A stretch of DNA of 64,000 nt from Alphaproteobacteria bacterium (GTDB taxonomy: Bacteria > Pseudomonadota > Alphaproteobacteria > Rs-D84). Below are positions 28,904 to 60,679 of the stretch, piece after piece. The number at the start of each line of letters is the position of its first letter. Positions within the stretch are counted from its first letter, which is position 1. The notes beneath the pieces are model-generated. The model saw only the letters and a program-made list of their open reading frames with translations. It ran no database searches and was not told where the DNA came from. A program made the translations under genes and the position numbers. Location: the NCBI GenBank assembly GCA_017935245.1, contig JAGBHZ010000011.1:107286-171285 (forward strand), read 5' to 3'.

Positions 28904-31156
28904 ATGGCAAAGAAGTTCAACATCTTATCCGCATCCGGCAAAGGAAAAGGTCTGGGGATATTTAAATCGGGTTCATACAAAGAACACGAAAAGACCCCAA
29001 TGGCGCAAATATTTTGGCGCATTCGCTGGGGATGTGGTATTTGGATTGTGGCCGCGTTGGCGTTTGGCGTATCGTTTATAATTGAACATATTTGGCGATA
29101 TGGGTGGAGTCCCGCCAGCGAAATCTGGACCAAAACATATTTAATGAACATGCTGACCAGTGGTGGTATTTCTGTGTTGGCGGAAATTCCATCATGGGTA
29201 TGGCGTTGTGTATTTCGCACTGATTTGGCATGTATGGTACCGATTTTGCCAATTATTGCGTACTATTTTCTGGCCGATGGGACGTTTACAGATGAATTTA
29301 ACCCGCATGGCAAAGATAAATTTGATGAAAAATCTTCTAATAAAGCCACCGCCGCCGATATTAAAAAGATGGCACAAAATTTCAAAAACAGCGAAGGGCT
29401 GTTCAATGGTTTTATGATGGTGTTGGGGTATTTCAAAAACAAAGGCAAAAGTATGCCACTAATGTTTGATGAATGCCTGTCAACATTGTGTGTTGCGCCC
29501 CCGGGAACCGGTAAAACCGCCGGGGTTGTTATTCCAACAATATTGGATTGCGATACAGTTTCAATGATTATTAATGACCCGAAACCAGAACTGAAACAAA
29601 CAACCAGTGGTTATCGTTCGACCATTGGGCCGGTGTTTATTATGAACTGGGCCGGCCAAGATGACCCGGCACGCGGTATATATTATCCGTCATGGAATCC
29701 GCTATCGCCCGAACACGTGCCATTTAACCAAGAACAGCGCGATTTGTATATTGATTCAATTTGCAACACACTTATCCCAGACCGTTCAGGTTCGTCGGCC
29801 GATCCACACTGGACCATAACTGGGCGGGCGGCGCTGACTGGATTTGTACAATATATCGTGTCCAAGGTTGAACGGGCCAAGGCCGATGATTATTTCTATG
29901 CACGCCTGGCCAATGGTACATTTAACGCCGAAGATGCGGCCGTGTTGTCGGATTATTATTTATCAATGATGACGGATTCAAACGCATATGCTGCGCATGC
30001 AATGCTGCAACGTGGGGAATTAAACGCAATGAACTATGTCCATGTTGGAACATGGGTAAATATCCCGGATGCGTGGCGGGGCAAAGAAGCATCTTTCCCA
30101 ATGATTCTGGATTGGCTTACATCAAGTCAGATTGCAATTTCACAACAATTAGAAGAACGACGCAAGGCCGGCGACCAGATGGTTATGATGGCAGATCCAT
30201 TAAAGGAATTGTTCCAAAACGCCGTGGACGAAGCGCGCCAATACGCATATTCACACCGCGCCGTCCAAGAATTAACACAATTGGCAAATACCCCGGACAA
30301 GGAACGTGGTTCTATTATGTCAACGGCGTTATCGGGACTAACAATTTTCCGTAATGCGGCGGTACGTAATCGAACATCACATTCGGACTTTCATTTCTCA
30401 GACCTGCGCGGGATGCGCGACCCACGTGATGGAAAAATGAAACCGGTTACGGTCTATTTGTCTATTAATATGGTTGATGCCCAGGCACTTAATCCAATCA
30501 CCGCGATATTTATTGAATTAATGTCAAACTTTCTGTTGGCAAATGCACCGGGGGGCAACCACCAAGGACAAGAATTAGGGCCATGTCCTGTGTTATTCGT
30601 TTTAGACGAAATGCCAAAAATGCAAAAAATGCAGGCCGTTATCCAGGGACCCGACCTGGGGCGTGGACAAAAGATTTCATACCTGCTAATCGGCCAGGAT
30701 TTAAACCAGATTGCTGAAAAATATGGACACGAAGCCGCCGATACAATCATATCGACAACCGCTGCTAAAATTGTTTTACGTCAAAATGACCCAGGTACCG
30801 CCGACCGTTTTTCTAAAATGATGGGCATGAAAATGAAAAAAGAAAAAGGTGCCGACGGTAAAGAAGTTACCAAGGAATCATTGCTTTATACACCAATGGA
30901 TATTATGAAGTTGGAAGAGGGAAAACAACTGGTTATTATCCAGGGGCACTATAACCGCCCGATTGAGGCAGACCAAGAAAGATGGTTCTTGAACAAAACA
31001 CCGGTTCAAAAAGAACTGTTTAAAAAGGTTCAAATGGGCGAAGCACCACCATTACCAGAATTCTTGGTTGCGTCGCATCATCGTGCGCTGGGGTTCAGTG
31101 GGACACCACGAATATATTATCCCGCAACAAAAGAAATTAAAATTTTATCAGAATAA
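28904..31156 (+). CDS. virD4: Type IV secretion system coupling protein VirD4/TraG family
   Basis: N-terminal transmembrane helices, Walker A (VAPPGTGKTAGVVIPTIL), a Walker B region (VLFVLDEMPKMQ). 750 aa. No other vir gene lies nearby. Confidence 0.8.
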   Translation: MAKKFNILSASGKGKGLGIFKSGSYKEHEKTPMAQIFWRIRWGCGIWIVAALAFGVSFIIEHIWRYGWSPASEIWTKTYLMNMLTSGGISVLAEIPSWVWRCVFRTDLACMVPILPIIAYYFLADGTFTDEFNPHGKDKFDEKSSNKATAADIKKMAQNFKNSEGLFNGFMMVLGYFKNKGKSMPLMFDECLSTLCVAPPGTGKTAGVVIPTILDCDTVSMIINDPKPELKQTTSGYRSTIGPVFIMNWAGQDDPARGIYYPSWNPLSPEHVPFNQEQRDLYIDSICNTLIPDRSGSSADPHWTITGRAALTGFVQYIVSKVERAKADDYFYARLANGTFNAEDAAVLSDYYLSMMTDSNAYAAHAMLQRGELNAMNYVHVGTWVNIPDAWRGKEASFPMILDWLTSSQIAISQQLEERRKAGDQMVMMADPLKELFQNAVDEARQYAYSHRAVQELTQLANTPDKERGSIMSTALSGLTIFRNAAVRNRTSHSDFHFSDLRGMRDPRDGKMKPVTVYLSINMVDAQALNPITAIFIELMSNFLLANAPGGNHQGQELGPCPVLFVLDEMPKMQKMQAVIQGPDLGRGQKISYLLIGQDLNQIAEKYGHEAADTIISTTAAKIVLRQNDPGTADRFSKMMGMKMKKEKGADGKEVTKESLLYTPMDIMKLEEGKQLVIIQGHYNRPIEADQERWFLNKTPVQKELFKKVQMGEAPPLPEFLVASHHRALGFSGTPRIYYPATKEIKILSE

Positions 31157-31201
31157 AAACACCGGAAAATACCGGTGTTTTTATTACCCTTTTTTTCACA
31201 A

Positions 31202-33505
31202 TTATTTATCGCGGATTTGTGCATTGCATTTGTTTTCAACAGATTTAATTACCGCGTCTTGGATTTTTAATAAATCTGAATCTGACATGTTTTCACGTGG
31301 CTGGATGGTAATTGTAAATGCAATCGATTTTTTACCTTCCGACAAATCAAATGCATCAAATACAACCACGTCTGTTATGCGCGCGTCCGCAGATATCGCC
31401 GCGCCTGTTAATTTTTCCGCCGGCATATCCATATCCACAATAAACGCAAAATCACGTGTTATCGGCTGAAATTCAGATGGTGTGATATTTTTCCCAACGC
31501 GTCGTTGTGGCATGTTGTTAATATCATCAACAATCGCAACTACAACATTTGTTTTAATGCGTAATTTTTTCGCAATTGATGGATGAAGTTCACCAAATTC
31601 CGCCAATGTGCGTTTACCCTGAATAATTTTACCATAACGGTATGGATGTGCCCAGCGTGGTACATCATCGGTTGATATGGTATATTTCTGGCCGTTTAAC
31701 ATTGAAACAATATCTGATTTTACATCATATATATCCACATCACGCGTGCGCGACTGCCAATGTTTTGGGCCGGTGCGACCGGTGCGAACAATACATAATG
31801 ACGCGTGTTGCATACCCGGCGCATCACCATCAAATACCGTTCCCAATTCAAACAAATTTAAATCTGCAAATCCACGTTTTTCATTATTAGACACCGTTTC
31901 CAGCAATCCGCCCAACAGACCATTACGCGCTGTATCCATATCGGTTGTAATTGGATTTGCAATTTTAACAATTGGTTTATCTGATAGTAATTGTTCCGTT
32001 GTGCTGCAACCAAATGCATATGAACAGCATTCGTTCAATCCACACGACGCCAGATGACGCTTTAAATACAATTCATGATTATACTTTTTTTCAACATCAC
32101 CAATTGTATGTGTGGCCGCCAACGCTAATTTTTCATAACCATATATACGCAGTAAATCCGCCACAATCGTTTCAGGAATCTGAACATCAACACGACGCGA
32201 TGGTGGGGTTACCAACCAATTTTTACCCACAATTTCCAGCGTATAGCCCAATTTTTCCAAAATATCACGTTGGATATTTTCATCCATATCGGCGCCCGTC
32301 TTTTGTGCAAAATATTTCGGCGTATATTCTATTTTTGTATCGGTTAATTTATCCATGCCCGCCGAATATGCCGTTGTAATTTTACCACCACATGCGTCCA
32401 TTATTATATTCGCCGCATTCATCGCCGCCACGCCGGTTATTGTTGGGTCAATACCACGTTCATAGCGGTATGATGCGTCCGTTGACATACCGATTCTTTT
32501 CGCAGATTTTCGAACAGAGACCGGGTCAAAATACGCAGATTCCAAGATAATATTTTTGGTATCATCGGTTGTTGAACCACGCGCGCCACCAATAACACCC
32601 GCCAACGCCAAGATGCCCATATCGTCGGCAATAACCATATCCGTGTCCGTCAATTCATGTTCGCCACCGAACAGGTCTGTGAACTTTTCGCCAGATTTTG
32701 CCATACGAACAACGATATCGCCGTGAATTTGGTCCGCATCAAAACAATGCATAGGCTGGGCCATATCATAACAGATATAGTTTGTTGCATCGATTGCCGC
32801 GTTTTTCGGATTGATACCAATCGCGCGCAGACGTGATGCAATTTTTTCCGAACTGGGGGCGATTTTTACACCGCTGATTTCAATTAGTTTATATGTTGCA
32901 CATTTATCAGTTTTAATAACCGCGCGACGATTTCCCGCAATTGGCTTAAATTCTGTATCATGTGGCGCGATATATTTACCCGCATTGGATGCCGATAAAT
33001 CACGCGCAATACCACGCACCGATAAATAATCTGGACGGTTTGGTGTAATACCGGCATCAAATACCGTTTTTACATCCAAGACCGGCGCGCCAATTTTTGT
33101 ATCGTCTGGTAATTCAATAATACCACTGTGGTCGTCATTTATACCCAATTCTTTACCGGAACACATCATACCATCAGACATCACACCACGCAGTTTACCA
33201 GATGTTATTTCGTGTCCATCAATCACACACCCCGGCACCGCCAGCGCAGAAACCAGCCCCACACGTGCATTTGGCGCACCACAGACAACCTGGCGCAATG
33301 TGCCCGTTCCATCATCAACCATTAAAACATGCAAATGATCACTGTTTTCATGTGGTTTGCATTCAACAATACGCGCTGCAATTGGGGCGGTGGGGGTTGT
33401 TAAATCTTCAACCTCTAAACCAATTCGCGTCAATTCATCCGCGATTTGTTCGGGTGTTAAATCTGTATCTAAATATTCTTGTAACCAATCATATGTCCAT
33501 TTCAT
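31202..33505 (-). CDS. pheT: Phenylalanyl-tRNA synthetase beta subunit
   Basis: N-terminal MKWTYDWLQEY...; B3/4, B5 and FDX-ACB domain order. 767 aa. Follows pheS. Confidence 0.93.
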   Translation of the reverse strand: MKWTYDWLQEYLDTDLTPEQIADELTRIGLEVEDLTTPTAPIAARIVECKPHENSDHLHVLMVDDGTGTLRQVVCGAPNARVGLVSALAVPGCVIDGHEITSGKLRGVMSDGMMCSGKELGINDDHSGIIELPDDTKIGAPVLDVKTVFDAGITPNRPDYLSVRGIARDLSASNAGKYIAPHDTEFKPIAGNRRAVIKTDKCATYKLIEISGVKIAPSSEKIASRLRAIGINPKNAAIDATNYICYDMAQPMHCFDADQIHGDIVVRMAKSGEKFTDLFGGEHELTDTDMVIADDMGILALAGVIGGARGSTTDDTKNIILESAYFDPVSVRKSAKRIGMSTDASYRYERGIDPTITGVAAMNAANIIMDACGGKITTAYSAGMDKLTDTKIEYTPKYFAQKTGADMDENIQRDILEKLGYTLEIVGKNWLVTPPSRRVDVQIPETIVADLLRIYGYEKLALAATHTIGDVEKKYNHELYLKRHLASCGLNECCSYAFGCSTTEQLLSDKPIVKIANPITTDMDTARNGLLGGLLETVSNNEKRGFADLNLFELGTVFDGDAPGMQHASLCIVRTGRTGPKHWQSRTRDVDIYDVKSDIVSMLNGQKYTISTDDVPRWAHPYRYGKIIQGKRTLAEFGELHPSIAKKLRIKTNVVVAIVDDINNMPQRRVGKNITPSEFQPITRDFAFIVDMDMPAEKLTGAAISADARITDVVVFDAFDLSEGKKSIAFTITIQPRENMSDSDLLKIQDAVIKSVENKCNAQIRDK

Positions 33506-33520
33506 TTTTTTGCCCCCACA

Positions 33521-34468
33521 TTAGAATCCAGCACTTTTTAACCATCTGACGTCATTGCCACGAAAATCGCGCAAATCTGGCAATCCATATTTCAACATTG
33601 CCAATCTATCCCAACCAAATCCAAATGCAAAGCCCTGGTATTGGTCTGGGTTAATACCGCAATTACGCAAAACATTTGGATGAACCATACCCGCACCCAT
33701 AATTTCCAACCAGCGTCCGTTTTTCCATTTCAAGTCAACCTCTATCGATGGGTCGGTAAATGGGAAATACGACGGACGAATACGCAATTCAACCGCGTCC
33801 ATTTCAAAGAAGCGTTTTAAAAATGCACGAATATCACCAATTAAATCCGACATTGTGATATTTTTATTAACATATAACCCTTCGATTTGACCGAACATAG
33901 GCGCATGCGTTGCGTCCATTTCTTTGCGGTATGTGGCACCAATACCAAACATTTTTATCGGCGCGCCCGTTTTTTCCATAGTGCGAATTTGAATCGCAGA
34001 TGTCTGGGTACGCATAACATTACCATTTTCTAAAAAGAAGGAATCTTGCATATCACGGGCCGGATGATAGTCCGGTGTATTTAACGCGGTAAAGTTATGC
34101 CAATCATCTTCGATTTCAGGCCCGGTGTGGGGCGTATAACCAAATGATTGCAAAATTTCAGAAATTTCAATCAAACTTTGCGTCATTGGATGAAGTGTAC
34201 CACGATTTTCAGGCGATGTATTTAAGGAAACATCTAACTTCTGCTTTTTTAAGCCCGCCATCAATACCGCATTTTCAATTTCCGCCTGGCGCGTTTTAAA
34301 CAATTCGCGCAATGTCTGATTTTCCAGATTTAATGCCGCACGCGCATTGTTGTCCATATTCTTCATTTCTTTCAGGCGCGCGGTCATTGTACCGTTTTTA
34401 CCAAACGTTGCAGTATATAACGCCGATAATTCATCCAGTGTATTTATATTTTTTATTTGTTCATGCAT
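33521..34468 (-). CDS. pheS: Phenylalanyl-tRNA synthetase alpha subunit
   Basis: Class II motifs (FPFTDPSIEVDL, GFAFGFGWDRLAMLKYG). 315 aa. Confidence 0.93.
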   Translation of the reverse strand: MHEQIKNINTLDELSALYTATFGKNGTMTARLKEMKNMDNNARAALNLENQTLRELFKTRQAEIENAVLMAGLKKQKLDVSLNTSPENRGTLHPMTQSLIEISEILQSFGYTPHTGPEIEDDWHNFTALNTPDYHPARDMQDSFFLENGNVMRTQTSAIQIRTMEKTGAPIKMFGIGATYRKEMDATHAPMFGQIEGLYVNKNITMSDLIGDIRAFLKRFFEMDAVELRIRPSYFPFTDPSIEVDLKWKNGRWLEIMGAGMVHPNVLRNCGINPDQYQGFAFGFGWDRLAMLKYGLPDLRDFRGNDVRWLKSAGF

Positions 34469-34559
34469 AACTATTACCTTAATAAAACTTTTAACTATTA
34501 ATAAAGGCCGTCAATTGACGACCTTTATATTACAAAACAAATACCCCGCCGACAAGGGA

Positions 34560-34928
34560 TTATTTAGATTCCCCGGCGATAAATCGTTTTGCAGTATCAA
34601 CCAATTTAACAAAGTTTGCATCACCAGCGTATGCCACTTCGGCCAACACTTTTCTGTCTAATGCAATACCAGCCTTTTTCAAGCCGTTCATAAACTGGCT
34701 GTATGTCATACCGTTTTGACGTACCGCGGCATTAATGCGGACAATCCACAAACCACGAAATTCACGTTTTTTAACGCGACGATCGCGATATGCATACTGG
34801 CCCGCTTTTTCTGTTTTTTCACGGGCGGCACGATATGTTGAGTGATGACGGCCCAAGTAACCCTTGGCACGCGCCAAAATCTTGTTATGTTTCTGTTTAA
34901 CAGTTGTTCCACGTTTAACTCTTGCCAT
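34560..34928 (-). CDS. rplT: 50S ribosomal protein L20
   Basis: [24 protein letters not shown]...; 122 aa. Confidence 0.95.
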
Positions 34929-34943
34929 GACTAAACCCCTTTA

Positions 34944-35147
34944 TTATTTCAACCCATATGGCGCCAAGATTTTAGCCTGGCCGACCATGTTATCGTTCAA
35001 ATACTGTGGTTTAGAACCCGCGTTGTTTGCACGCGCAGATTTTTTACGCAACAGTTTCTTGTGGGCGTTACGCGCAACACGGATTTTACCGGTCGCAGTC
35101 ATAGACGCACGCTTTTTCAAGTATGACTTTGTCTTTAATTTTGGCAT
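34944..35147 (-). CDS. rpmI: 50S ribosomal protein L35
   Basis: MPKLKTKSYLKKRASMTATGKI...; 67 aa. No infC is adjacent. Confidence 0.92.
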   Translation of the reverse strand: MPKLKTKSYLKKRASMTATGKIRVARNAHKKLLRKKSARANNAGSKPQYLNDNMVGQAKILAPYGLK

Positions 35148-35266
35148 TTTATATCCTTTTATTTTTAGGTGTTTTTATAGTCTGGTGGCAATGCCTGCCA
35201 CTTTGACTGATGTGTATTTTGGCATATTTCTTTTAAAAATCAAGTTTTTATTGAATATCGGACTTT

Positions 35267-39481: not shown

Positions 39482-39484
39482 GAT

Positions 39485-41725: not shown

Positions 41726-43341
41726 TGGCAGATTTTAACCGCAATTTTACAGATGAAATTCGTGAACGGTTATCAATCGTTGATGTTGTTTCACGGCGTG
41801 TGCCATTGACCAAAAAGGGTCAAAATTATTGGGGTTGTTGTCCATTTCATAATGAAAAAACCCCCAGTTTTTCTGTTAACGAAGACAAAGGTTTTTTTCA
41901 CTGTTTTGGTTGTGGAAAGCATGGTGATATTTTTTCATTTGTTATGGAAACAGATCATATAGATTTTGTCGCCGCAATGCAGGAATTAGCAAATATGGCC
42001 GGCATAAAGTTACCAGAAAAAAATCCTCGACCGGCCGATGTTGTTTCCCGTGAAAAATCTTTGTTTCAAATTTGTGATGCGGCTGCAAATGAGTATCATG
42101 AAAAATTATTTTCAGACGAAGGGGCGCATGCCCTGGAATATGTGCGTGGACGTGGTTTTAGTGATGATATGATAAAAAAATATCGTATCGGTTATGCGCC
42201 AAAGAAAAACTTTATCGCAAATAAATTTGTAAATGAAAAACAGGAAAATTTAATTGCAACCGGCCTTTGTCGGCGTGGTGATTATGGATTATACGATTTC
42301 TTTCGCGATAAATTAATGTTCCCTATCTTTAATCCACGTGGTCAAATTGTTGCTTTTTCGGGGCGTTCGCTGGATGGGTCGGAACCAAAGTATATAAACA
42401 CCAGTGATACAGAAATTTTCCACAAAAGAAAAACTGTATTTGGGTTCAATTTTGCCCGTGATGCAATTTACAGAAATAACCGCAGTATCGTCGTCGAAGG
42501 ACAAATAGATGCAATAAAAATGCAGGTAAATGGTTTTGGTGAAACCGTTGCCCCACTGGGGACGGCATTAACCGAAGATCATATTGCATTACTTTGTAAA
42601 TCTAATCGAAATATTACATTTTGTTTCGATGGTGATAATGCCGGACAAAAGGCGGCTGCCCGCGCATGTGGTATTGTTATGCCATTTTTACGCGATAATT
42701 CAGATGTAAAATTTGCATTTGTTTCAGGTGGCAAGGATCCAGATGAAATACTAAGAAACAGTGGTACGGATGCAATGCGAAAAATTATTGATGATGCGGT
42801 ACCATTGGTTGATTTTTTATGGAATCTGGCAAATACAAACTTTGTAATATCAACACCGGGGGGACGGGTCCAGGCGGAAAAGTTCTTGAAAAACGAACTG
42901 GAAAAAATTACCGATAATGACCTGAAAAGCGAGATGATTAAAGAATACGAAAAAAGGAAATTTGAAAACTGGCGCAAATGGAAACGTGATAATAATATCG
43001 TTAATATAAAAATTCCCGATGTTGACGCGGTTACAAAAAATACGTTGGTGTATATTGTGAACACATATCCGGAAATGGTCGAACGCCATGGTGATTTCTT
43101 GGCAACACTTAACATTGATTTCGGTGGGGCGGCGGCCGAATTGGATTTATCTTTAAATGATTCTGAAAAATATATTGTGTCATTAAAATTACAGCGTTAT
43201 ATGCAGCGGCTAAATATTCAAAACAAAGAATTAACCGCCAGATTATTGTCGGGTGATGAAACTGCACGCGAAGAACTATCTAAAAATTCCGCAGAAATCA
43301 TGCGTACACAAGAAAAATTAGAACAATTAATTTCTTTGTAA
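41725..43341 (+). CDS. dnaG: DNA primase
   Basis: Zinc finger (CCPFHNEKTPSFSVNEDKGFFHCFGCGKHGD) and a Toprim domain (VVEGQIDAI, FDGDNAGQKAA). 538 aa. rpoD does not follow it. Confidence 0.93.
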   Translation: MADFNRNFTDEIRERLSIVDVVSRRVPLTKKGQNYWGCCPFHNEKTPSFSVNEDKGFFHCFGCGKHGDIFSFVMETDHIDFVAAMQELANMAGIKLPEKNPRPADVVSREKSLFQICDAAANEYHEKLFSDEGAHALEYVRGRGFSDDMIKKYRIGYAPKKNFIANKFVNEKQENLIATGLCRRGDYGLYDFFRDKLMFPIFNPRGQIVAFSGRSLDGSEPKYINTSDTEIFHKRKTVFGFNFARDAIYRNNRSIVVEGQIDAIKMQVNGFGETVAPLGTALTEDHIALLCKSNRNITFCFDGDNAGQKAAARACGIVMPFLRDNSDVKFAFVSGGKDPDEILRNSGTDAMRKIIDDAVPLVDFLWNLANTNFVISTPGGRVQAEKFLKNELEKITDNDLKSEMIKEYEKRKFENWRKWKRDNNIVNIKIPDVDAVTKNTLVYIVNTYPEMVERHGDFLATLNIDFGGAAAELDLSLNDSEKYIVSLKLQRYMQRLNIQNKELTARLLSGDETAREELSKNSAEIMRTQEKLEQLISL

Positions 43342-43383
43342 AATAATTCTTGATTGTGGTTATATTCATGAAATAATTTATAT

Positions 43384-43743
43384 ATGTCCATGCGATATAT
43401 ATATTTACTGCGCAATCCAGAAACCGGGCATATCATCAGATATGTTATTGGATATCACGCCATGGCAATGTCGATTGATGAATTGTTTTATTTAATGCGT
43501 GATAAAATGCCAATCGCAAAACCATATCGTTTCCAAATTGGTGTTAAAATTATCAAGGATGGTAAATCAACAATAAAATGGAATAAAAAAATATATACAA
43601 TAGGATGTGTTTATAACAATAAAATTTATAATCTTGATGGAAAAGTATATAATTTTACAGAAAATGATGTTGTTATTTCCCCGGCTTTTTTAAACATTTT
43701 TATTAAAAAGGCCGGGAATTTATTAAAAGAAAAATCAAAATAA
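43384..43743 (+). CDS. Hypothetical protein
   Basis: 119-aa ORF 42 nt after dnaG. No motif recognised. Confidence 0.4.
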   Translation: MSMRYIYLLRNPETGHIIRYVIGYHAMAMSIDELFYLMRDKMPIAKPYRFQIGVKIIKDGKSTIKWNKKIYTIGCVYNNKIYNLDGKVYNFTENDVVISPAFLNIFIKKAGNLLKEKSK

Positions 43744-44424
43744 CGAAAAATTATTTTTAAATGTTTCGTATGCAATATTACGAATTTCATCCGTTGACAG
43801 GCCCGCCATGCGTAAATATTGAATTTGGGCCGGTGTTTGCCGGTAAATTGACGCAGAATGTTCGGCCGATTTGGGTTCTGAACTTATGTATTGTGCCGGT
43901 AAAAATTCAATTTTTGCCGTTTCATCCGCAATTGCAGAAAATCCAACATCCGATATACAATCCGGACAATTCTTTGATATTTCGGCAGATCCAGATATTT
44001 TTGAATATGTATTTTTATGCGCAATTATTTTTGTATGCACCAAAATACCGGTATTTTTGTAAAAATGGCCGGCATTTATATCTAATTCCAACCGGTCAAA
44101 GTTTTCAACAAAAACGTGACCACGTAATTCAGAATTTTTCCCGGTGTTTTTGATAAAAATATTAAAAAAGGCCGGCTTTTTATTTTTTATATCAACCGAT
44201 AAAAATACCAGCTGATTTTCAACATTGATATCAATAAATAAATCATTTTTATCAATAATTTCACCAACGTAAATAATATGCACCGGCAGGTCATATTTTT
44301 TATCGATTTGGCCGGATTTTATCGTCGATAAGTCTGGGCAATATTTACCATCGCGGTACACAATCGTTTCCGCAGGAAATGTTTTTATATTGAATTCATT
44401 CCACATGTATGACATATTATCCAC
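43735..44424 (-). CDS. Short SufB/SufD-family (UPF0051) protein, an orphan with no sufBC nearby
   Basis: 229 aa. The C-terminus (KSAEHSASIYRQTPAQIQYLRMAGLSTDEIRNIAYETF) matches the conserved SufBD tail (C/HSHGATVG..LDEEQLFYLRSRGI..EEA). The beta-helix-like repeats are only about half the normal SufD length. Confidence 0.5.
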   Translation of the reverse strand: MDNMSYMWNEFNIKTFPAETIVYRDGKYCPDLSTIKSGQIDKKYDLPVHIIYVGEIIDKNDLFIDINVENQLVFLSVDIKNKKPAFFNIFIKNTGKNSELRGHVFVENFDRLELDINAGHFYKNTGILVHTKIIAHKNTYSKISGSAEISKNCPDCISDVGFSAIADETAKIEFLPAQYISSEPKSAEHSASIYRQTPAQIQYLRMAGLSTDEIRNIAYETFKNNFSLF

Positions 44425-44442
44425 ATTATAAAGGATTTAGAC

Positions 44443-45522
44443 ATGGGATTCAATTGTGGAATTGTTGGATTGCCAAATGTTGGTAAATCAACACTGTTTA
44501 ATGCGTTAACACAAAGTGCGGCCGCGGATGCACAGAACTATCCGTTTTGTACAATCGAACCAAACACGGGGCGTGTTGTTGTGCCAGATGCGACATTGCA
44601 TGAATTGGCACGCGTTGCAGGTTCACAAAAAATTATACCAACACAACTGGAAATCGTTGATATTGCAGGTTTGGTAAAGGGGGCGTCGGCCGGCGAAGGA
44701 TTGGGAAATAAATTCTTGGGCAATATTTTATCAACAGATGCGATTATTCATGTGGTTCGCTGCTTTGAAAATGATGATATTGTGCATGTTAATGGAAAAA
44801 TTGACCCGTTGGGCGATATTGAAACGATTGAAACGGAATTAATGCTGGCAGATATGGAAAACCTGGAAAAACAGATTAAAAACCTGGAAAAAAAGGCACG
44901 CGGGCTGGATAAAGATGCGGCAAAATTGCTGGCGGATGCAAATGCAATTAAATCCAATCTGGAAAAATCAATTCCGGCACGTGATGGTGATATTGATGCG
45001 GCGCCTTTTAATTTATTAACCGCACAACCGGTTATCTATGTTTGTAATGTCGAAGAAGCGGCCGCGGCATGTGGCAACAAATATTCCGATATGGTTCGTG
45101 AAAAATTTGGGTCGGTCGCCGACGTTTTGGTTATTTCATCAAAAATTGAAATGGAAATTTCACAAATTGTTGACGTGGACGAAAGAAAAATGTTCCTGGA
45201 TGATTTAGGATTGACTGAATCCGGCCTGGACCAGGTTATTAAGACCGGGTATAAAACATTAGGCCTGCAAACATATTACACAATCGGGCCCAAGGAAGCA
45301 CATGCATGGACCATCACCGTTGGTATGACCGCGCCCCAGGCGGCCGGAAAAATCCACACCGATTTTGAAAAAGGCTTTATCCGGGCCGAGGTTATTTCGC
45401 CCGCAGATTATATTGCCCTCGGTGGCGAGGTTGCCGTAAAAGAAGCGGGTAAAATGCGCCTGGTGGGGCGTGATTATGTCATGCAAAACGGCGACATTTG
45501 CCATTTCTTGTTTAATAATTAA
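44443..45522 (+). CDS. ychF: Ribosome-binding ATPase YchF (Obg family)
   Basis: G1 motif (GIVGLPNVGKST), a coiled-coil insert, and a C-terminal TGS domain. 359 aa. Confidence 0.93.
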   Translation: MGFNCGIVGLPNVGKSTLFNALTQSAAADAQNYPFCTIEPNTGRVVVPDATLHELARVAGSQKIIPTQLEIVDIAGLVKGASAGEGLGNKFLGNILSTDAIIHVVRCFENDDIVHVNGKIDPLGDIETIETELMLADMENLEKQIKNLEKKARGLDKDAAKLLADANAIKSNLEKSIPARDGDIDAAPFNLLTAQPVIYVCNVEEAAAACGNKYSDMVREKFGSVADVLVISSKIEMEISQIVDVDERKMFLDDLGLTESGLDQVIKTGYKTLGLQTYYTIGPKEAHAWTITVGMTAPQAAGKIHTDFEKGFIRAEVISPADYIALGGEVAVKEAGKMRLVGRDYVMQNGDICHFLFNN

Positions 45523-45549
45523 AAAAACGGCTTTTGCCGTTTTTTTTTC
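45521..45549 (+). terminator. Rho-independent terminator after ychF
   Basis: AAAAAAACGGC-tttt-GCCGTTTTTTTTT. Confidence 0.85.
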
Positions 45550-45578
45550 TTGCATTTATGTTTATGTGGGGTTATAAT
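45550..45578 (+). promoter_or_regulatory. Near-consensus sigma-70 promoter (TTGCAT, 17-bp spacer, TATAAT) driving a short non-coding transcript
   Basis: The -35 hexamer TTGCAT is at 45550-45555 and the -10 hexamer TATAAT is at 45573-45578, giving an exact 17-bp spacer. The nearest annotated genes are on the opposite strand or upstream. Confidence 0.55.
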
Positions 45579-45583
45579 TTAGA

Positions 45584-45706
45584 CGGAAACTGTAGCAAAT
45601 AACGAGGCGTTTATAAAAAAATATTTTTTGGGGACGCCTACAATGCAAGTTTATTGCAAGAGGCTACATCCTGTTTTTTTTAGAACCTTTTTAGGTTCTT
45701 TTTTTT
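45584..45706 (+). ncRNA. Putative small RNA of about 100-120 nt, running from the strong promoter to a hairpin terminator. Function unknown.
   Basis: Predicted transcription start about 6 nt after the -10 hexamer. It contains an internal GGCGT...ACGCC hairpin and a palindromic TTGCAA pair. It ends at AGAACC-ttttta-GGTTCT followed by TTTTTTT (45682-45706), with another T-tract at 45673-45680. I see no convincing ORF in it. Confidence 0.35.
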
Positions 45707-45794
45707 ATATATTATTTCTTGGTAAATATTATAAGATAATAAAAAACCCACCAATTGGCGGGGATTTTTATTTGGTCTTAATTCGAACTTAATC

Positions 45795-45929
45795 TTATTT
45801 TCTTTTGAAACCCTGTTTCGCTTTGAACTTAGGATTATCTGGATCGATTAAGATTACCTGCTTGCCACGACGGATTTGTTTTACGTTTCCGCGTTTCTTC
45901 CAAGCCTTTAATGAACTTAAAAATTTCAT
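45795..45929 (-). CDS. rpmJ: 50S ribosomal protein L36 (bL36), zinc-ligand-free variant. It is missing from the ORF track because it is under 60 aa.
   Basis: The minus-strand translation is MKFLSSLKAWKKRGNVKQIRRGKQVILIDPDNPKFKAKQGFKRK (44 aa). It matches the L36 pattern MKVxSSLK...RRG...VI...NP[KR][FH]K[AQ][KR]QG, but the Cys/His zinc ligands are replaced. A GU-containing hairpin plus T-tract terminator follows it on the minus strand at about 45741-45772. Confidence 0.7.
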   Translation of the reverse strand: MKFLSSLKAWKKRGNVKQIRRGKQVILIDPDNPKFKAKQGFKRK

Positions 45930-46016
45930 GTCTTAATCCTTTGGTACGGTGGGTATTATATACGCTTTTTGTGAAAAATCAAATATTAATATTATTTTTT
46001 GTTGTTTTTGTAGGGC

Positions 46017-46221
46017 CTGTTGAAATTGTTGAAAACAGTTATTCACTTTTTATCAACCGGTTTTTAACAATTATTTCCAGGTTTTCTGCGGGGTTGTGAT
46101 TGGTGTGTTGAAAAATACCCCTGTTAATTTAACAGTTAAAAAATACACAGTTTTCAACATAATTAACAATTTTTTTGGGGATGTTTTTATACTTGTTGAA
46201 AAATGTTGAAATTGGTATAAT
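46017..46221 (+). promoter_or_regulatory. virB3 upstream region with at least six GTTGAAA(A) motifs on both strands, a 15-bp palindrome, and an extended -10 promoter
   Basis: GTTGAAA occurs at about 46019, 46028, 46107, 46195 and 46205 on the + strand and at 46151-46158 (TTTTCAAC) on the minus strand. A CTGTTAA-t-TTAACAG palindrome sits at about 46121-46135. TGgTATAAT (46213-46221) gives an extended -10 about 25 nt before the virB3 ATG. The ribosome-binding site is AAGAGAG. Confidence 0.5.
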
Positions 46222-46246
46222 TCAAATACATAGGGGTACAAGAGAG

Positions 46247-46543
46247 ATGAAACAGCAAGTTTTAAAGGCTTTAGCAAATCCGTCGCGCATATTTTATGTG
46301 CCGTATTCACTGGCTGTGATTAATTTTTTTGTGCAATTTGTTATTTTTATGGTCGTTTTTGTCGCAGATTTGTTAATTCATGGTACTGATTCTATGGTTA
46401 ATCCGGCGTTTTTCTTGATTTCTGTTATAATTGTACACTCTATTTTGGCGATTTATTCCAAGCGTGATCCTCAAATTGGGCAAATTATCACAGCAAGAAT
46501 ACAATTAATGAAAAAAAAGATTCCAAACAGGTTGGCGGCGTAA
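46247..46543 (+). CDS. virB3: Type IV secretion system protein VirB3
   Basis: About 98 aa from the internal Met (MKQQVLKALANPSRIFYVPYSLAVINFFVQF), with two transmembrane helices. It sits directly upstream of virB4. The tracked ORF starts earlier, at 46175. Confidence 0.75.
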   Translation: MKQQVLKALANPSRIFYVPYSLAVINFFVQFVIFMVVFVADLLIHGTDSMVNPAFFLISVIIVHSILAIYSKRDPQIGQIITARIQLMKKKIPNRLAA

Positions 46544-46546
46544 GAA

Positions 46547-48967
46547 ATGAAAGAATTTTTTAGTTATTTTGCAGGAGGCGAATTTACAATCACTACGACA
46601 ATTTTAGTGATGATTGTTTTGGCGGTGTTTTTGGTAATGATGATGTATGTGCCGACACTGACCCGGCGGATTTTTCCGCGTTTTGGGTATGCAAAATATG
46701 CAAACTATTTACCGTTTAAAACCGTTTTTACAGATAATTCAATTGAATTGACGGATGGTTCTCTTATCCGGGCGTATCGGGTCCAGGGAATTCAGACCAG
46801 TATGCAAGATGATAAAACAAAAGAAAAATTCTTGGATTTGCGGACGCAATTGTTTAATCAAATTCGTGATCCAAATGTAACGCTGCGTTTCTATACGGTG
46901 CGTGATGCAATGGATGAAAATACAAACTATGAATTTGACCAGCCGACATTACAGCGTATCTATAACAAATGGAAAAGTCAGGGATTAAAGATATTTTTAA
47001 ATAACTACTATATCGTTATATCGGTTGCAGGGGCGGATGCACGCGCAAAATTAAATCAATATGGAAACTATGTTGAATCGATATTGGCGGCGTACAAGCC
47101 AAGTGTCTTGAAAAATAACGCACCGGATAATATGGCGCGATTCTTTGGGCGTATTTTATCCCCAATCAGTAAGCCACAGCCAAAAACATGCAATAATGAT
47201 ATTGCAAATATGGTTACGGTTGATGATGTTGAATTTATGCGCAATGGTATTATTCGTTATATCAGTGGTGGGGCACAATCGTTTGCGTCAATTGTATCGT
47301 TTAAAATTTCACCAGATTATTTAGATGAAGAATTTTATGATACGGTTTCTACAATCCAAACAGAAATGATTTCTATGAACGGGTTTGGTATTATGGGGGC
47401 GGCCGATGTTGAATCAACAATTCGTCAGCGTCGATCAACCGCCGATGAAAAGGTTCTGAAATCAACAGAAGAGCAAATTTATGCGGTTGAATCTGCGATG
47501 GATGAAAATATATCTGGTAACCAGACGTTGGTTAATTATTATCCAATGTTTGTTATATTTGGGGCAACCGTTGAAGATGTACAAAAATATGTCGGTGAAT
47601 TTAAAAAAATTGCCGCGTCCTTTGGAATTTCGCCGGTTGTTGAAACATTTGCCAGTAAGGTTGCATGGTTTTCATTAATACCAGGATTTAACGTCTTTCC
47701 ACGCAGTTTTAAGTTGTTATCAAAAACCGCCGCAATCAGTATTCCAATGTCCAGTACGCCACGCGGGGTCGAAAATTCAGATTGGGGTCCGGGGCCATTG
47801 GTTATTTTCCCAACCGCCCAAGGGACACCGTATCAATTCCAATTTCATGTTTCTGATAAACCGGCCGCCGTGGCACATACATTGACAATCGGGCCGACCG
47901 GTGGTGGTAAAACAACTTTGTTTTCGTTCCTTATTGCGCAAAGTTTGCGTTTCCCAAAATTAAAAGCATTTTTCTTTGACCGTAACAAAGGGGCCGAGAT
48001 TTTTACACTAGCGGTTGGGGGAAAATATATCACAATGCAAGGGAAAGAAAAAAATACAGACCCAATGGCGCATACATTTCAAACACATTTAAATCCACTA
48101 AAAATGCCGGACAGTGCCGCAAATCGTGCGTTTTTACGTCGGTGGTTTTCAATTATAACCGGACAAAATGACGCCGCGTCAATGGATGAAATTGCGCGTG
48201 CGGTTTCGGTTAATTTTGATTATTTGTCAGATAAAGACAGATTGTTAAAAAATTTATGGGAAAGTTGCTTTTCTTCATCTGGAAATATGAGACCGGCATT
48301 AAAAAAATGGGTCGATCCATTGCAATATGGGTACATGTTTAATGAAAATGAAGATACGCTGGATTTACAATCGCGTTTGACAACATTTGATTTTACAGAA
48401 ATTTTGCAGGATGAAACGTTGGCGCCGGCGGTAATTTCTTATATCTTGCATCGTATTAATACAACAACGGTTTCAGGGGGAAATCCGTCGTTAATTATGA
48501 TTGACGAAACCGCACCAATGCTTGAAAACAAGATGTTCCGTGATAATTTTGTGGCAGGCCTGCAAGAAGGGCGTAAAAATCGCCAGGCATATATGGCCGC
48601 ATTCCAACGTGCAAATGTTCTGGACAAGTTGGGAATTGGTGATGTGGTTCGTGGCCAGGCACAAACAGTTCTGTTTTTCCGTAACCCGGCGGCGGATGCA
48701 CGTGATTATGAACATTGGAATTTAAATCCGTTGGAAATGGCATTTATTCAAGGTAAAGCGTATCCAAACCTGAAAAGGGCGGTGTTGTTATCGCGCCCGG
48801 TTACCGGGGAATCGGTTGTTTTAAATACCGAGTTAGGAGGTCTGGGGAATATGTTGCGGTTATTTGAATCGGGGCGCCCATCGGTATTATTGGCCGAAGA
48901 ATTATATAAAATGTACGGCAGTAATTTTGTTAATGAATACCTTAAAAAGCAAGGGGCATTGGATTAA
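46547..48967 (+). CDS. virB4: Type IV secretion system ATPase VirB4
   Basis: 806 aa. Walker A is LTIGPTGGGKTTLFSF and Walker B is LIMIDETAPML. This is the CagE/TrbE/VirB4 architecture. Confidence 0.9.
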   Translation: MKEFFSYFAGGEFTITTTILVMIVLAVFLVMMMYVPTLTRRIFPRFGYAKYANYLPFKTVFTDNSIELTDGSLIRAYRVQGIQTSMQDDKTKEKFLDLRTQLFNQIRDPNVTLRFYTVRDAMDENTNYEFDQPTLQRIYNKWKSQGLKIFLNNYYIVISVAGADARAKLNQYGNYVESILAAYKPSVLKNNAPDNMARFFGRILSPISKPQPKTCNNDIANMVTVDDVEFMRNGIIRYISGGAQSFASIVSFKISPDYLDEEFYDTVSTIQTEMISMNGFGIMGAADVESTIRQRRSTADEKVLKSTEEQIYAVESAMDENISGNQTLVNYYPMFVIFGATVEDVQKYVGEFKKIAASFGISPVVETFASKVAWFSLIPGFNVFPRSFKLLSKTAAISIPMSSTPRGVENSDWGPGPLVIFPTAQGTPYQFQFHVSDKPAAVAHTLTIGPTGGGKTTLFSFLIAQSLRFPKLKAFFFDRNKGAEIFTLAVGGKYITMQGKEKNTDPMAHTFQTHLNPLKMPDSAANRAFLRRWFSIITGQNDAASMDEIARAVSVNFDYLSDKDRLLKNLWESCFSSSGNMRPALKKWVDPLQYGYMFNENEDTLDLQSRLTTFDFTEILQDETLAPAVISYILHRINTTTVSGGNPSLIMIDETAPMLENKMFRDNFVAGLQEGRKNRQAYMAAFQRANVLDKLGIGDVVRGQAQTVLFFRNPAADARDYEHWNLNPLEMAFIQGKAYPNLKRAVLLSRPVTGESVVLNTELGGLGNMLRLFESGRPSVLLAEELYKMYGSNFVNEYLKKQGALD

Positions 48968-49583
48968 GTCGGTGTTAAAACGTATTGGTATTTTGTCTGT
49001 TTTTCTGTGTTTGCCGGCGTTTGCCAATGATTGTGTGTCGTATAAAATGACACCAAAAATAACAATATCTGTACCAACATGGACCAAAGAGGTTGTTCAG
49101 CCCCTGGATGAAATGGATTTATGGCATGGTAATGTTATTGCAACAATGGTTGATAACTATGATATTGTTGCCGATATCACATCAATCGAAGATGGTTTTT
49201 GTGTTGGTATTAAACAGGTTGATGCAGAAATTGGGTATTCTAATTTCTTGGTCCAGGTTGATATAAGACATAAACCAAATACATGTTCTTATGATGCGGT
49301 GTTGGCGCATGAAGATCAACATATTCGCGAATATTTATCCGTTATTGATGATGCGCGCATGGGGTTGCATAATGCATTGTACAGTGCGGCGGATTCAGTT
49401 ATGCCGATTTTTGTAAAAGATTCATTGGATATTGATTTGGCAATTGAACAACTAAATGAAAAATTACAATCGCATCCAGAACTAATTTTGATAAAACAAA
49501 AAATTAAAAGCGAAGAAGAAATTCGTAATAAAAAAATAGATCAAAATGATATGGGTGAATCATTGAAAAAATGCTTGAATTAA
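48933..49583 (+). CDS. Predicted secreted HExxH zinc-metalloprotease-like protein (DUF922-like), overlapping the end of virB4
   Basis: Signal peptide (MNTLKSKGHWIKSVLKRIGILSVFLCLPAFA) and an HEDQH motif (AHEDQHIREY). The tracked ORF 48864..49583 begins inside virB4, so the true start is probably 48933 or close to it. Confidence 0.5.
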   Translation: MNTLKSKGHWIKSVLKRIGILSVFLCLPAFANDCVSYKMTPKITISVPTWTKEVVQPLDEMDLWHGNVIATMVDNYDIVADITSIEDGFCVGIKQVDAEIGYSNFLVQVDIRHKPNTCSYDAVLAHEDQHIREYLSVIDDARMGLHNALYSAADSVMPIFVKDSLDIDLAIEQLNEKLQSHPELILIKQKIKSEEEIRNKKIDQNDMGESLKKCLN

Positions 49584-56917: not shown

Positions 56918-56946
56918 AAAAATCCCCATATGGGGATTTTTTTTTA
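56916..56946. terminator. Bidirectional-looking rho-independent terminator
   Basis: AAAAAAATCCCCA-ta-TGGGGATTTTTTTTT. Confidence 0.8.
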
Positions 56947-59025: not shown

Positions 59026-59040
59026 TATACCGGGAATAAA

Positions 59041-60678: not shown

Positions 60679-60679
60679 T

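What the first reader, a model, noticed from the sequence alone, without database searches (positions are those of the whole stretch)
28904..49583. Dispersed rvh-like type IV secretion genes: solitary virD4, and virB3-virB4 followed by a secreted HExxH protein in place of virB6
virD4 (28904..31156) stands alone, convergent with pheT. In Rickettsiales-type systems it normally ends a virB8-11-virD4 operon. About 15 kb away, virB3 and virB4 are adjacent (46247..48967). The gene whose start overlaps the virB4 stop is not a virB6 paralog. It is a roughly 215-aa protein with a signal peptide and an HEDQH metallopeptidase motif (DUF922-like). The overlapping coupling to virB4 suggests a periplasmic or secreted protease-like factor expressed together with the T4SS core. 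It could process T4SS components or be a substrate.
Basis: partly seen in the sequence, partly recalled or inferred. Interest (0 to 1): 0.6.

Follow-up and report, generated by a model that had tools for sequence, protein, structure and literature searches.

The report
Metal-binding protein coupled to VirB4 secretion gene
A tiny-genome gut bacterium keeps a three-gene unit, virB3, virB4 and an unnamed exported protein with a zinc-protease-like motif, so tightly linked across about ninety related genomes that the unnamed protein is probably a new accessory part of a type IV secretion machine.

Summary
An intact virD4 (28904..31156) stands alone, convergent with pheT. About 15 kb away lies a compact virB3 (46247..46543), virB4 (46547..48967), X (48972..49583) operon among housekeeping genes.

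X most likely starts at GTG 48972, 4 nt after the virB4 stop, and is 203 aa, not about 215 aa with an overlapping start. It has a signal peptide, four conserved Cys, and HExxH plus Asp190. These residues are invariant in 150 representatives clustered at 50% identity.

X matches no Pfam, NCBIfam or PDB sequence entry. Two confident AlphaFold models (pLDDT 94 and 92) match nothing in PDB by Foldseek. Only a consensus of its wider family touches DUF922, below threshold (E 7e-5, 23.4 bits, cutoff 27).

virB4 is immediately followed by X in all 90 related genomes and contigs examined, down to 45% VirB4 identity, with varying flanks. Most wider-family members sit in housekeeping contexts. In canonical plasmid relatives the slot after VirB4 holds VirB5, not VirB6.

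The source is a Candidatus Enterousia-like (Rs-D84) reduced genome. X is probably a dedicated periplasmic metalloprotein of a divergent, scattered VirB/D4 system. Its substrate is unknown, and protease activity and zincin fold are unproven.

The parts
28904..31156 (+). virD4 (type IV coupling protein, 750 aa). It is solitary, divergent from rsmE and convergent with pheT.
   Evidence: Pfam T4SS-DNA_transf 1.4e-53, TraG-D_C and TrwB_AAD_bind. Walker A APPGTGKT, Walker B-like VLFVLDE and an N-terminal hydrophobic segment were read from the sequence. The rsmE-virD4 pairing is also seen in L064, L066 and L078.
45985..46246 (+). Conserved upstream and promoter region of virB3. It holds six copies of GTTGAAA or its complement (46019, 46028, 46107, 46152 on the minus strand, 46195, 46205), a TGnTATAAT-type -10 element and an AGGGG ribosome-binding site.
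   Evidence: This is the only cluster of the motif in the 64-kb window; background is 0.16 sites per 330 nt. Copy positions and the core CTTGTTGAAAAnTGTTGAAATTGkTATAAT are conserved in 11 aligned genomes. Its function is inferred.
46247..46543 (+). virB3 (98 aa, membrane protein).
   Evidence: Pfam VirB3 5.4e-07, 30.3 bits against a cutoff of 23.9. NCBIfam PRK13899 4.9e-4. Its stop lies 3 nt before the virB4 ATG.
46547..48967 (+). virB4 (806 aa ATPase).
   Evidence: PF03135 1.9e-11. TIGR00929 5.2e-107, 359 bits, below the 643-bit cutoff. A GPTGGGKT Walker A was read from the DNA. It is 32-33% identical to VirB4 of Microvirga, Sphingosinicella and Erythrobacter plasmids.
48972..49583 (+). X: a 203-aa exported HExxH...D protein of an unnamed family.
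   Evidence: Its start is 4 nt after the virB4 stop, at the position conserved in relatives. The first homology search gave 678 hits, none with a Pfam domain among the 120 listed and named at most 'hypothetical protein'. There are 349 clusters at 50% identity. It has no Pfam or NCBIfam hit. The AlphaFold model has pLDDT 94.4.
48972..49025 (+). Signal peptide of X (18 aa, cleavage after AFA).
   Evidence: MLKRIGILSVFLCLPAFA|NDC was read from the sequence. The equivalent hydrophobic N-terminus and A-x-A site are present in homologs.
49308..49322 (+). HEDQH motif (His113, Glu114, His117).
   Evidence: Among 50%-identity cluster representatives, His113 is kept in 131 of 131, Glu114 in 131 of 131 and His117 in 129 of 130. 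The motif lies in predicted helix 105-127.
49539..49541 (+). Asp190, the candidate third metal ligand.
   Evidence: It is kept in 135 of 135 representatives and is invariant in the 106-sequence alignment with 18% mean column identity. It lies in predicted helix 169-192. The metal-site geometry was not inspected.

Best explanation
The window comes from a Candidatus Enterousia-like gut alphaproteobacterium of order Rs-D84, a group with genomes under about 1 Mb and a probably partner-dependent lifestyle. It carries a divergent chromosomal VirB/D4-type type IV secretion system whose genes are split into islets. One islet is a solitary virD4. The other is a three-gene operon, virB3-virB4-X, with 3-4 nt between the genes.

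X is exported by Sec and is probably stabilised by two disulfides from its four conserved Cys. It carries an invariant His-Glu-x-x-His plus Asp set that most likely binds one zinc ion, with the Glu acting as a general base.

X belongs to an unnamed family, remotely DUF922-like, whose other members sit in housekeeping contexts in other Alphaproteobacteria. One branch of that family appears to have been recruited to virB4 (inferred), and the adjacency has been kept wherever this VirB4 lineage was sampled. It fills the slot that VirB5 fills in canonical systems.

The most likely role (inferred) is a dedicated periplasmic accessory enzyme made together with VirB3 and VirB4. It would act on the envelope during assembly or operation of the machine, either remodelling the cell wall locally (a VirB1-like job) or trimming a T4SS subunit.

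Shown here: gene content, coupling, conservation, export signal, invariant residues and a confident fold prediction. Inferred: metal binding, hydrolase activity, a T4SS-specific role and the substrate.
For: Gene identities.

Operon spacing of 3 and 4 nt.

Linkage:
- virB4 immediately precedes X in 83 of 83 loci (L001-L083), of which L004-L083 are species-representative genome loci, while the flanks vary: rfbA, lipocalin, lrgAB or a Gln-deamidase gene follows X, and ychF flips orientation.
- The same unit occurs at VirB4 identities of 74% (L216), 66% (L085), 63% (L088) and 45% (L105).
- In L105 the unit is flanked by acyl-ACP thioesterase and DUF2062 genes.
- The start of X lies -8 to +21 nt from the virB4 stop in 82 of 86 relatives.

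Invariant residues: His, Glu, His, Asp and four Cys in 150 representatives. An invariant Glu argues for catalysis rather than a purely structural metal site.

Family relationships:
- The T4SS-linked and wider branches are one family: hhalign probability 99.9%, E 2e-31.
- The wider-family consensus hits DUF922, a predicted secreted zinc protease, at E 7e-5 in full-length register. Four of the other nine sequences tested hit it weakly, three in the same register and one in an overlapping one.

Position: in the canonical relatives the gene after VirB4 is VirB5-like.

Anecdotal links to peptidoglycan in the wider family:
- A fusion to Sel1 plus PG_binding_1 in P0235.
- A start codon overlapping the stop of mltA in L091.
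- A gene ending in a LysM-like motif upstream in L084 (recognised by eye, no HMM).

Co-occurrence: the plasmid with the best VirB4 match (Microvirga pMVF16-3) is also the only plasmid matched by X and the better of two plasmids matched by P0184.
Against: - No fold match to any zincin or other solved structure was found by Foldseek for two models. There was also no match in the viral structure library or by profile search of PDB sequences.
- The two residues between Glu and the second His are hydrophilic, and no helix is predicted before the HExxH helix. Both features are unlike canonical zincins; the comparison rests on general knowledge of zincins.
- X itself and the consensus of the T4SS-linked clade do not hit DUF922.
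- Of 55 wider-family loci that have an upstream neighbour, only one (L105) was identified as lying behind virB4. No peptidoglycan gene recurs among 32 close same-strand neighbours.
- Other T4SS parts (B2, B6, B8-B11) were not seen in the window or in about 90 flanking loci. Whether a complete machine exists is therefore unknown.
Confidence: 0.5

Rival explanations
1. X is a general periplasmic housekeeping metalloprotein with no T4SS-specific role. On this view it sits behind virB4 only because genome compaction fused neighbouring transcription units.
For: Most wider-family members lie in housekeeping contexts. Typical neighbours are xth, erpA and dgt, or X is operonic with arfB or an adenylate cyclase. 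The host genome is highly reduced and gene-dense (PMC12306168). No direct functional evidence ties X to the T4SS.
Against: The adjacency persists from 100% down to 45% VirB4 identity while everything around the three genes is reshuffled. The stop-to-start spacing stays at a few nucleotides. The T4SS-linked branch has its own conserved N-terminal half and C-terminal motif.
Confidence: 0.25
2. X is a non-homologous structural replacement for VirB5, the stalk and pilus-tip protein. On this view the HExxH site is a structural or adhesive feature rather than a catalytic one.
For: X has the same gene position, similar size and an N-terminal export signal as the gene after VirB4 in the Erythrobacter and Microvirga loci. 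The rvh system shows that T4SSs can lack VirB5 (PMC2653234). X evolves faster than VirB4, for example 41% against 74% identity in L216, as expected of an exposed subunit.
Against: The X profile shows no similarity to Erythrobacter VirB5. X has no Pfam hit at all, so none to the VirB5 family. The predicted fold is a long beta-hairpin plus helices, not the three-helix bundle with a globular appendage reported for the VirB5 analog TraC (PMC2653234). Strict invariance of Glu114 is hard to explain without catalysis.
Confidence: 0.12
3. X is a secreted toxin or effector. It would be exported to the periplasm by Sec and then released by the T4SS in two steps, as pertussis toxin is by the Ptl system.
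For: X has a Sec signal and is co-transcribed with T4SS genes. The pertussis toxin precedent is from general knowledge. In L088 a Gln_deamidase_2 toxin-like gene follows X.
Against: Housekeeping-context relatives exist in bacteria where no T4SS gene is nearby. The protein is small and highly conserved, with no variable target-recognition region. A VirD4 coupling protein is present, and VirD4 normally takes substrates from the cytoplasm.
Confidence: 0.08

Closest known systems
DUF922 (Pfam PF06037, COG5661), predicted secreted Zn-dependent protease of Alphaproteobacteria
   Same: Both are small exported bacterial proteins with HExxH. The consensus of X's wider family aligns to HMM positions 13-141 of 153 at E 7.1e-5. 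Four of the other nine sequences tested hit it weakly, three in the same register and one overlapping. DUF922 is itself only a predicted zincin, with an FFAS score of -7.4 to thermolysin (PMC3650047).
   Different: X and the consensus of the T4SS-linked clade give no DUF922 hit even at E<=10. The best score of 23.4 bits is below the 27-bit gathering cutoff. The four-Cys pattern and the N..D C-terminal motif were defined here and were not checked against DUF922. No T4SS linkage is known for DUF922.
VirB5 / TraC family (minor pilin and stalk protein of VirB-type T4SS)
   Same: Both occupy the gene slot directly after virB4, are about 200-250 aa long and have an N-terminal export signal.
   Different: There is no sequence similarity. 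The predicted fold has a long beta-hairpin, and the HExxH...D and four-Cys signature is not seen in the Erythrobacter VirB5-like sequence.
VirB1-type specialised cell-wall hydrolases of T4SSs
   Same: Both would be periplasmic enzymes encoded in the T4SS operon. The wider X family shows scattered peptidoglycan associations: a PG_binding_1 fusion, coupling to mltA and a LysM-like neighbour.
   Different: VirB1 is a lytic transglycosylase with a lysozyme-like fold and a catalytic Glu (PMC2653234). X has a metal-site signature and an unrelated predicted fold. Activity on the cell wall is untested.
Rickettsiales vir homolog (rvh) T4SS
   Same: Both are chromosomal and scattered into islets in a reduced alphaproteobacterial genome. 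In both, virB3-virB4 forms the head of one islet and no VirB5 is seen (PMC2653234).
   Different: In rvh, virB4 is followed by five virB6 paralogs and virD4 ends a virB8-11 operon. Here virB4 is followed by X and virD4 is solitary. The NCBIfam models PRK13897-13899 (Rickettsia-type, from memory) score far below their cutoffs. The closest plasmid VirB4s are conjugative-type at 32-33% identity.

Membership tests
DUF922 (PF06037) | Score at or above the Pfam gathering cutoff of 27 bits against the PF06037 model | tested here: not met
   X has no hit at E<=10. The consensus of the T4SS-linked clade has no hit. The wider-family consensus scores 23.4 bits, E 7.1e-5. This fits a remote relative, not a member.
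DUF922 (PF06037) | HExxH motif present in essentially all members | tested here: met
   HEDQH lies at residues 113-117. His and Glu are invariant and the second His is kept in 129 of 130 representatives.
Zincin metallopeptidases (HExxH clan) | HExxH on a helix plus a conserved third metal ligand downstream | tested here: inconclusive
   The motif is in predicted helix 105-127. Asp190 is invariant and lies in helix 169-192.
Zincin metallopeptidases (HExxH clan) | Zincin fold: mixed beta-sheet and backing helix before the active-site helix | tested here: not met
Zincin metallopeptidases (HExxH clan) | Zinc-dependent peptidase activity | not testable with these tools
   This needs purified protein, metal analysis and activity assays.
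VirB5 / TraC family | Sequence similarity to VirB5 models or proteins | tested here: not met
   X has no Pfam hit of any kind. The X profile against Erythrobacter VirB5 gave E 0.11 in an 11-sequence search, which is noise.
VirB5 / TraC family | Gene directly downstream of virB4, exported, about 220 aa | tested here: met
VirB6 / TrbL family | Polytopic inner-membrane protein with a TrbL/VirB6 domain | tested here: not met
   X is 203 aa, its only hydrophobic stretch is the N-terminal signal peptide (by reading the sequence), and it has no Pfam hit.
rvh-type T4SS | virB genes scattered in separate chromosomal islets | tested here: met
   virD4 and virB3-virB4 lie 15 kb apart among housekeeping genes. 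No other T4SS gene was found within +/-10 kb in about 90 relatives.
rvh-type T4SS | virB4 followed by multiple virB6 paralogs, and virD4 at the end of virB8-11 | tested here: not met
   virB4 is followed by X and then by rfbA. virD4 is flanked by rsmE and pheT.
rvh-type T4SS | Duplicated virB4, virB8 and virB9, and absence of virB5, genome-wide | not testable with these tools
   Only a 64-kb window and +/-10 kb loci were available.
VirB4 ATPases | CagE_TrbE_VirB domain and Walker A motif | tested here: met
   PF03135 scores 44.8 bits against a cutoff of 21. GPTGGGKT was read. TIGR00929 scores 359 bits, below its subfamily cutoff of 643, so the protein is divergent.
VirD4 / TraG coupling proteins | T4SS-DNA_transf domain, N-terminal membrane segments, Walker A and B motifs | tested here: met
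   PF02534 scores 182.8 bits. The motifs were read.

The most novel reading that the evidence does not exclude
X is an obligatory, previously unrecognised component of a distinct chromosomal T4SS lineage. It would be a periplasmic metalloenzyme with a fold not yet seen in solved structures. It would have taken over the VirB5 slot, or the VirB1 job. The virB3-virB4-X machine would then underlie how genome-reduced Rs-D84 gut bacteria exploit partner cells.
Probability: 0.3. Interest if true: 0.75.

Novelty: new variant of a known kind. Interest (0 to 1): 0.55.

Why it matters
- Type IV secretion systems are built from a well-known parts list. A conserved, enzyme-like extra part fused to the VirB3-VirB4 energy module would add to that list. 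It would also offer a handle on how such machines cross the cell wall when VirB5, and perhaps VirB1, are missing.
- The host lineage (Candidatus Enterousia, order Rs-D84) is a widespread gut group with genomes under 1 Mb, whose way of obtaining nutrients from partners is unknown. The one paper read here on its genomes (PMC12306168) does not mention secretion systems. No paper in the library pairs Enterousia with type IV secretion.
- The X family has at least 349 clusters at 50% identity and no Pfam model. It has an invariant metal-site signature and a confident predicted fold without a solved counterpart. That makes it a reasonable target for structure and function work.

Tried and rejected
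**Searches with X that found nothing**
- Direct Pfam and NCBIfam scans of X found nothing, even at E<=10.
- Profile searches of PDB sequences with A1, A3 and A4 gave only compositional hits to helical proteins.
- Foldseek of two models against PDB, and of one against viral structures, gave only noise.

**Searches that failed or were uninformative**
- The alignment-based locus search with A3 and A4 failed because the alignments were too diverse. A back-translated motif scan of metagenomes replaced it.
- A second homolog search with distant members mostly returned the Enterousia clade again.
- P0241 and P0313 share a contig length. I checked whether that meant two paralogs in one genome. It did not; the contigs are different.

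**Hypotheses tested and not upheld**
- A Pfam census of 32 close same-strand neighbours of wider-family members tested the peptidoglycan idea. No peptidoglycan family recurred, so the evidence stays anecdotal.
- tblastn with Erythrobacter VirB2-B11 against the window and about 90 loci looked for other T4SS genes. It found only VirB4, VirD4, one VirB9-like piece in the unrelated locus L089, and weak VirB11 hits. I attribute those weak hits to the pilus ATPase, without checking the coordinates.
- VirB5 identity of X is rejected.
- VirB6 identity of X is rejected.
- The GTTGAAA motif is absent upstream of virD4, so co-regulation of the two islets through it is not supported.
- Rfam found only three tRNAs in the window.
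Full report
**What is in the sequence**

- A 750-aa VirD4 is encoded at 28904..31156. It matches Pfam T4SS-DNA_transf at 1.4e-53, plus TraG-D_C and TrwB_AAD_bind. It has Walker A APPGTGKT, a Walker B-like VLFVLDE and an N-terminal hydrophobic segment.
- Its neighbours are an RsmE-type methyltransferase (28195..28848, minus strand), a pseudouridine synthase, a TPR protein and the convergent pheT-pheS pair. The virD4 gene is therefore solitary.
- Fifteen kilobases away, virB3 (46247..46543; PF05101, 30.3 bits) is followed after 3 nt by virB4 (46547..48967; PF03135; TIGR00929 5e-107, below its subfamily cutoff).
- Pfam scans of nearly all ORFs of at least 100 aa in the window found only housekeeping genes and no further T4SS family.
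- Those housekeeping genes include ftsK, mutS, mreC, pbp2, rodA, topA, dnaG, ychF, the rml operon, lpxK and lpxC. The scans also found a type I restriction subunit and a pilus-like cluster.

**The gene after virB4 (X)**

The mechanical ORF starts at TTG 48864. Two in-frame starts are realistic.
- ATG 48933 lies 35 nt before the end of virB4 and gives 216 aa.
- GTG 48972 lies 4 nt after the TAA and gives 203 aa.

In 86 related loci a start codon, mostly ATG, lies -8 to +21 nt from the virB4 stop in 82 cases. The -35 ATG exists only in the four closest relatives. I therefore take GTG 48972 as the start. The genes are tightly coupled but probably do not overlap.

The product begins MLKRIGILSVFLCLPAFA|NDC, a standard Sec signal with an A-x-A cleavage site. 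It carries HEDQH at residues 113-117.

**Source organism**

The best-matching genomes are MAGs named Candidatus Enterousia or 'uncultured Alphaproteobacteria' from animal and human guts. In L004, YchF is 98% identical, RfbA 97%, VirB4 91% and X 83%. Enterousia belongs to the uncultured order Rs-D84. Its genomes are under about 1 Mb and lack most biosynthetic pathways, and the organisms are thought to depend on partner cells. The paper describing this does not mention secretion systems (PMC12306168). No paper in the library pairs Enterousia with type IV secretion.

**Is the linkage real?**

Yes.
- In all 83 loci L001-L083, virB4 lies immediately upstream of X. L004-L083 are loci from 80 species-representative genomes. 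virB3 is upstream of virB4 wherever the contig reaches that far.
- The surroundings vary. rfbA follows X only in the closest genomes. Elsewhere a lipocalin gene, lrgAB or a Gln-deamidase gene follows, and ychF changes orientation and side.
- The same three-gene unit is found in more distant genomes: L216 and L217 (VirB4 74% in L216), L085 (VirB4 66%, X 31%), L088 (63%, 34%) and a metagenome contig, L105 (45%, 26%).
- In L105 the unit sits between an acyl-ACP thioesterase gene and a DUF2062 gene.
- No VirB5, B6, B8, B9 or B10 was detected by tblastn within +/-10 kb in any of the loci that carry the virB4-X unit. The unit is therefore an isolated islet everywhere it was sampled.

**What is X?**
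- X has no Pfam or NCBIfam hit, even at E<=10. The first homology search gave 678 hits; none of the 120 listed has a Pfam domain, and the only source name is 'hypothetical protein'.
- A full HMMER scan of 1.84 billion cluster representatives found 349 clusters at E<=0.001.
- Of 50 distant members, none had a credible Pfam family for this domain.
- A 106-sequence alignment with 18% mean column identity keeps Gly53, His113, Glu114, His117 and Asp190 invariant, and four Cys nearly so.
- Over 150 representatives at 50% clustering, the counts are His113 131 of 131, Glu114 131 of 131, His117 129 of 130 and Asp190 135 of 135. The four Cys are kept in every sequence that covers them, apart from one Glu at position 105.
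A strong candidate, Asp190, exists. The invariant Glu speaks for catalysis.
- AlphaFold2 gives a confident model for X, with pLDDT 94.4 and pTM 0.85. It has two short strands, a hairpin of two roughly 20-residue strands, a long helix carrying HExxH, three further helices (one carrying Asp190) and a short C-terminal helix.
- A distant member, P0184, gives the same layout at pLDDT 92.3.
- Foldseek found nothing in PDB for either model, and nothing in the viral structure library for the first. Profile searches of PDB sequences also found nothing.
- Two features differ from textbook zincins. The residues between Glu and the second His are hydrophilic, and no helix precedes the HExxH helix.

**DUF922**

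- X and the consensus of its T4SS-linked clade do not hit PF06037.
- A consensus of the wider family does, at E 7.1e-5 and 23.4 bits (cutoff 27). The alignment covers residues 54-187 against HMM positions 13-141 of 153.
- Four of the other nine sequences tested hit it weakly. Three align in the same register around the HExxH region and one in an overlapping register.
- The T4SS-linked and wider branches are clearly one family, with hhalign probability 99.9% and E 2e-31.
- DUF922 itself is only a predicted zincin, with an FFAS score of -7.4 to thermolysin (PMC3650047).
- I therefore file X as a remote DUF922-like relative, not a member.

**Context of the wider family**
- A motif scan of metagenomes gave 69 loci that carry a family member.
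- Their typical setting is housekeeping: xth and erpA on the opposite strand, and dgt nearby. Close same-strand neighbours include arfB (5 loci) and an adenylate cyclase (4 loci).
- Only one locus, L105, was identified as lying behind a virB4.
- The family as a whole is therefore not T4SS-specific; one branch was recruited.
- Hints at cell-wall biology exist but are isolated:
  - a fusion to Sel1 repeats plus PG_binding_1 in P0235;
  - Sel1-like repeats, recognised by eye, in L120, L131 and L156;
  - a start codon overlapping the stop of mltA in L091;
  - a gene ending in a LysM-like motif upstream of the member in L084.

**Comparison with canonical systems**
- The nearest plasmid VirB4s are from Microvirga, Sphingosinicella and Erythrobacter, at 32-33% identity.
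- On the Erythrobacter plasmid the annotated locus runs B2-B3-B4-B5-B6-B7-B8-B9-B10-B11-D4 next to a MobA/MobL relaxase gene. The Microvirga locus has the same overall order.
- There the gene after VirB4 is a VirB5-like exported protein. X therefore sits in the VirB5 slot rather than 'in place of virB6'.
- The X profile shows no similarity to that VirB5.
- The Microvirga plasmid with the best VirB4 match is also the only plasmid in the collection matched by X, and the better of two matched by P0184. Its X-family gene scores E 5e-42 against the family profile and lies about 35 kb from the T4SS locus.
- The rvh system of Rickettsia is scattered in five islets, lacks only virB5 and has five virB6 genes after virB4 (PMC2653234). 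The present system shares the scattering but not the virB6 expansion or the virB8-11-virD4 operon.
- The NCBIfam VirB3, VirB4 and VirD4 models PRK13897-13899, which I recall as Rickettsia-type, score far below their cutoffs.

**Interpretation**

The best-supported reading is as follows. X is a Sec-exported, probably disulfide-bonded, metal-binding protein, likely a hydrolase. It became a fixed accessory of a divergent chromosomal VirB/D4 system and is produced together with VirB3 and VirB4.

What it acts on is not known. Local cell-wall remodelling, or processing of a T4SS subunit, are the most natural options.

The rivals are a hitchhiking housekeeping enzyme, a structural stand-in for VirB5, and a two-step secreted effector. 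Confidence in the T4SS-accessory reading is about 0.5.

**Other observations**
- The 260 nt upstream of virB3 carry six copies of GTTGAAA, the only such cluster in the window.
- Their positions, and the core CTTGTTGAAAAnTGTTGAAATTGkTATAAT, are conserved across genomes whose X proteins are only 41-68% identical to the window's.
- The motif is absent upstream of virD4.
- A pilus-like cluster lies at 57099..61750, with PilO-like, T2SSE and T2SSF genes.

Noticed in passing
window 46019-46211 (upstream of virB3); same region in L001, L004, L013, L022, L028, L040, L047, L216: Six copies of GTTGAAA or its complement form an array in the 230 nt before virB3. It is the only such cluster in the 64-kb window; background is 0.16 sites per 330 nt. 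Copy positions and the core CTTGTTGAAAAnTGTTGAAATTGkTATAAT are conserved in relatives. It is probably a regulator-binding array around an extended -10 promoter. It recalls the TTGAAA core of the Agrobacterium vir box, but that is from memory and was not tested. The motif is absent upstream of virD4.
   Followed up: partly
window 56543-61750: A pilus-like cluster: an unknown 124-aa ORF, a PilO-like protein (PF06864), an unknown 224-aa ORF, a 545-aa T2SSE ATPase and a T2SSF membrane protein. The layout resembles R64-type thin (type IVb) pilus genes, a comparison from memory. The same order after DUF374-lpxK-lpxC is seen in L213.
   Followed up: no
window 45786-45920 (minus strand): A 44-aa ribosomal protein L36 gene (rpmJ) lies between ychF/sufBD and the virB3 promoter. 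It is too short for the ORF list. The homologous gene is called in L001, L213 and L216, with a weak Ribosomal_L36 hit in L216.
   Followed up: partly
window 43735-44424 (minus strand): A SufBD-core protein of only 229 aa (PF01458, 26 bits, just under the cutoff). It is kept at about 220-230 aa in relatives (L001, L213, L216). This is much shorter than usual SufB or SufD proteins, a comparison from general knowledge.
   Followed up: no
L088 8741-9274: In a relative with VirB4 63% identical, the gene directly after X encodes a Gln_deamidase_2 (PF18626) protein. It is a possible toxin or effector candidate next to the T4SS unit.
   Followed up: no
L090 8001-9371 (P0235); L120, L131, L156; L091 1434-3217; L084 2-166: Wider-family members occur fused to Sel1 repeats and a PG_binding_1 domain, coupled to an mltA gene, and downstream of a gene ending in a LysM-like motif. 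These are scattered hints at a cell-wall-related role. A census of 32 operonic neighbours did not confirm the idea.
   Followed up: partly
L218 and L219 (Microvirga sp. VF16 plasmid pMVF16-3, NZ_CP069357.1): The plasmid with the best VirB4 match in PLSDB (33% identity, canonical conjugative locus) also carries the only plasmid X-family gene found with X as the query (WP_203447134.1). That gene lies about 35 kb from the T4SS genes, near a DNA methyltransferase gene and a giant ORF.
   Followed up: partly
L216 versus window: X evolves much faster than its operon partners in some lineages. In L216, YchF is 92% identical, RfbA 87%, VirB4 74%, VirB3 55% and X 41%, although gene order around the unit is the same as in the window.
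   Followed up: no
window 313-3315: A type I restriction enzyme R subunit (HSDR_N, SWI2_SNF2, T1R_D3-like domains) lies at the left end of the window in this very small genome.
   Followed up: no
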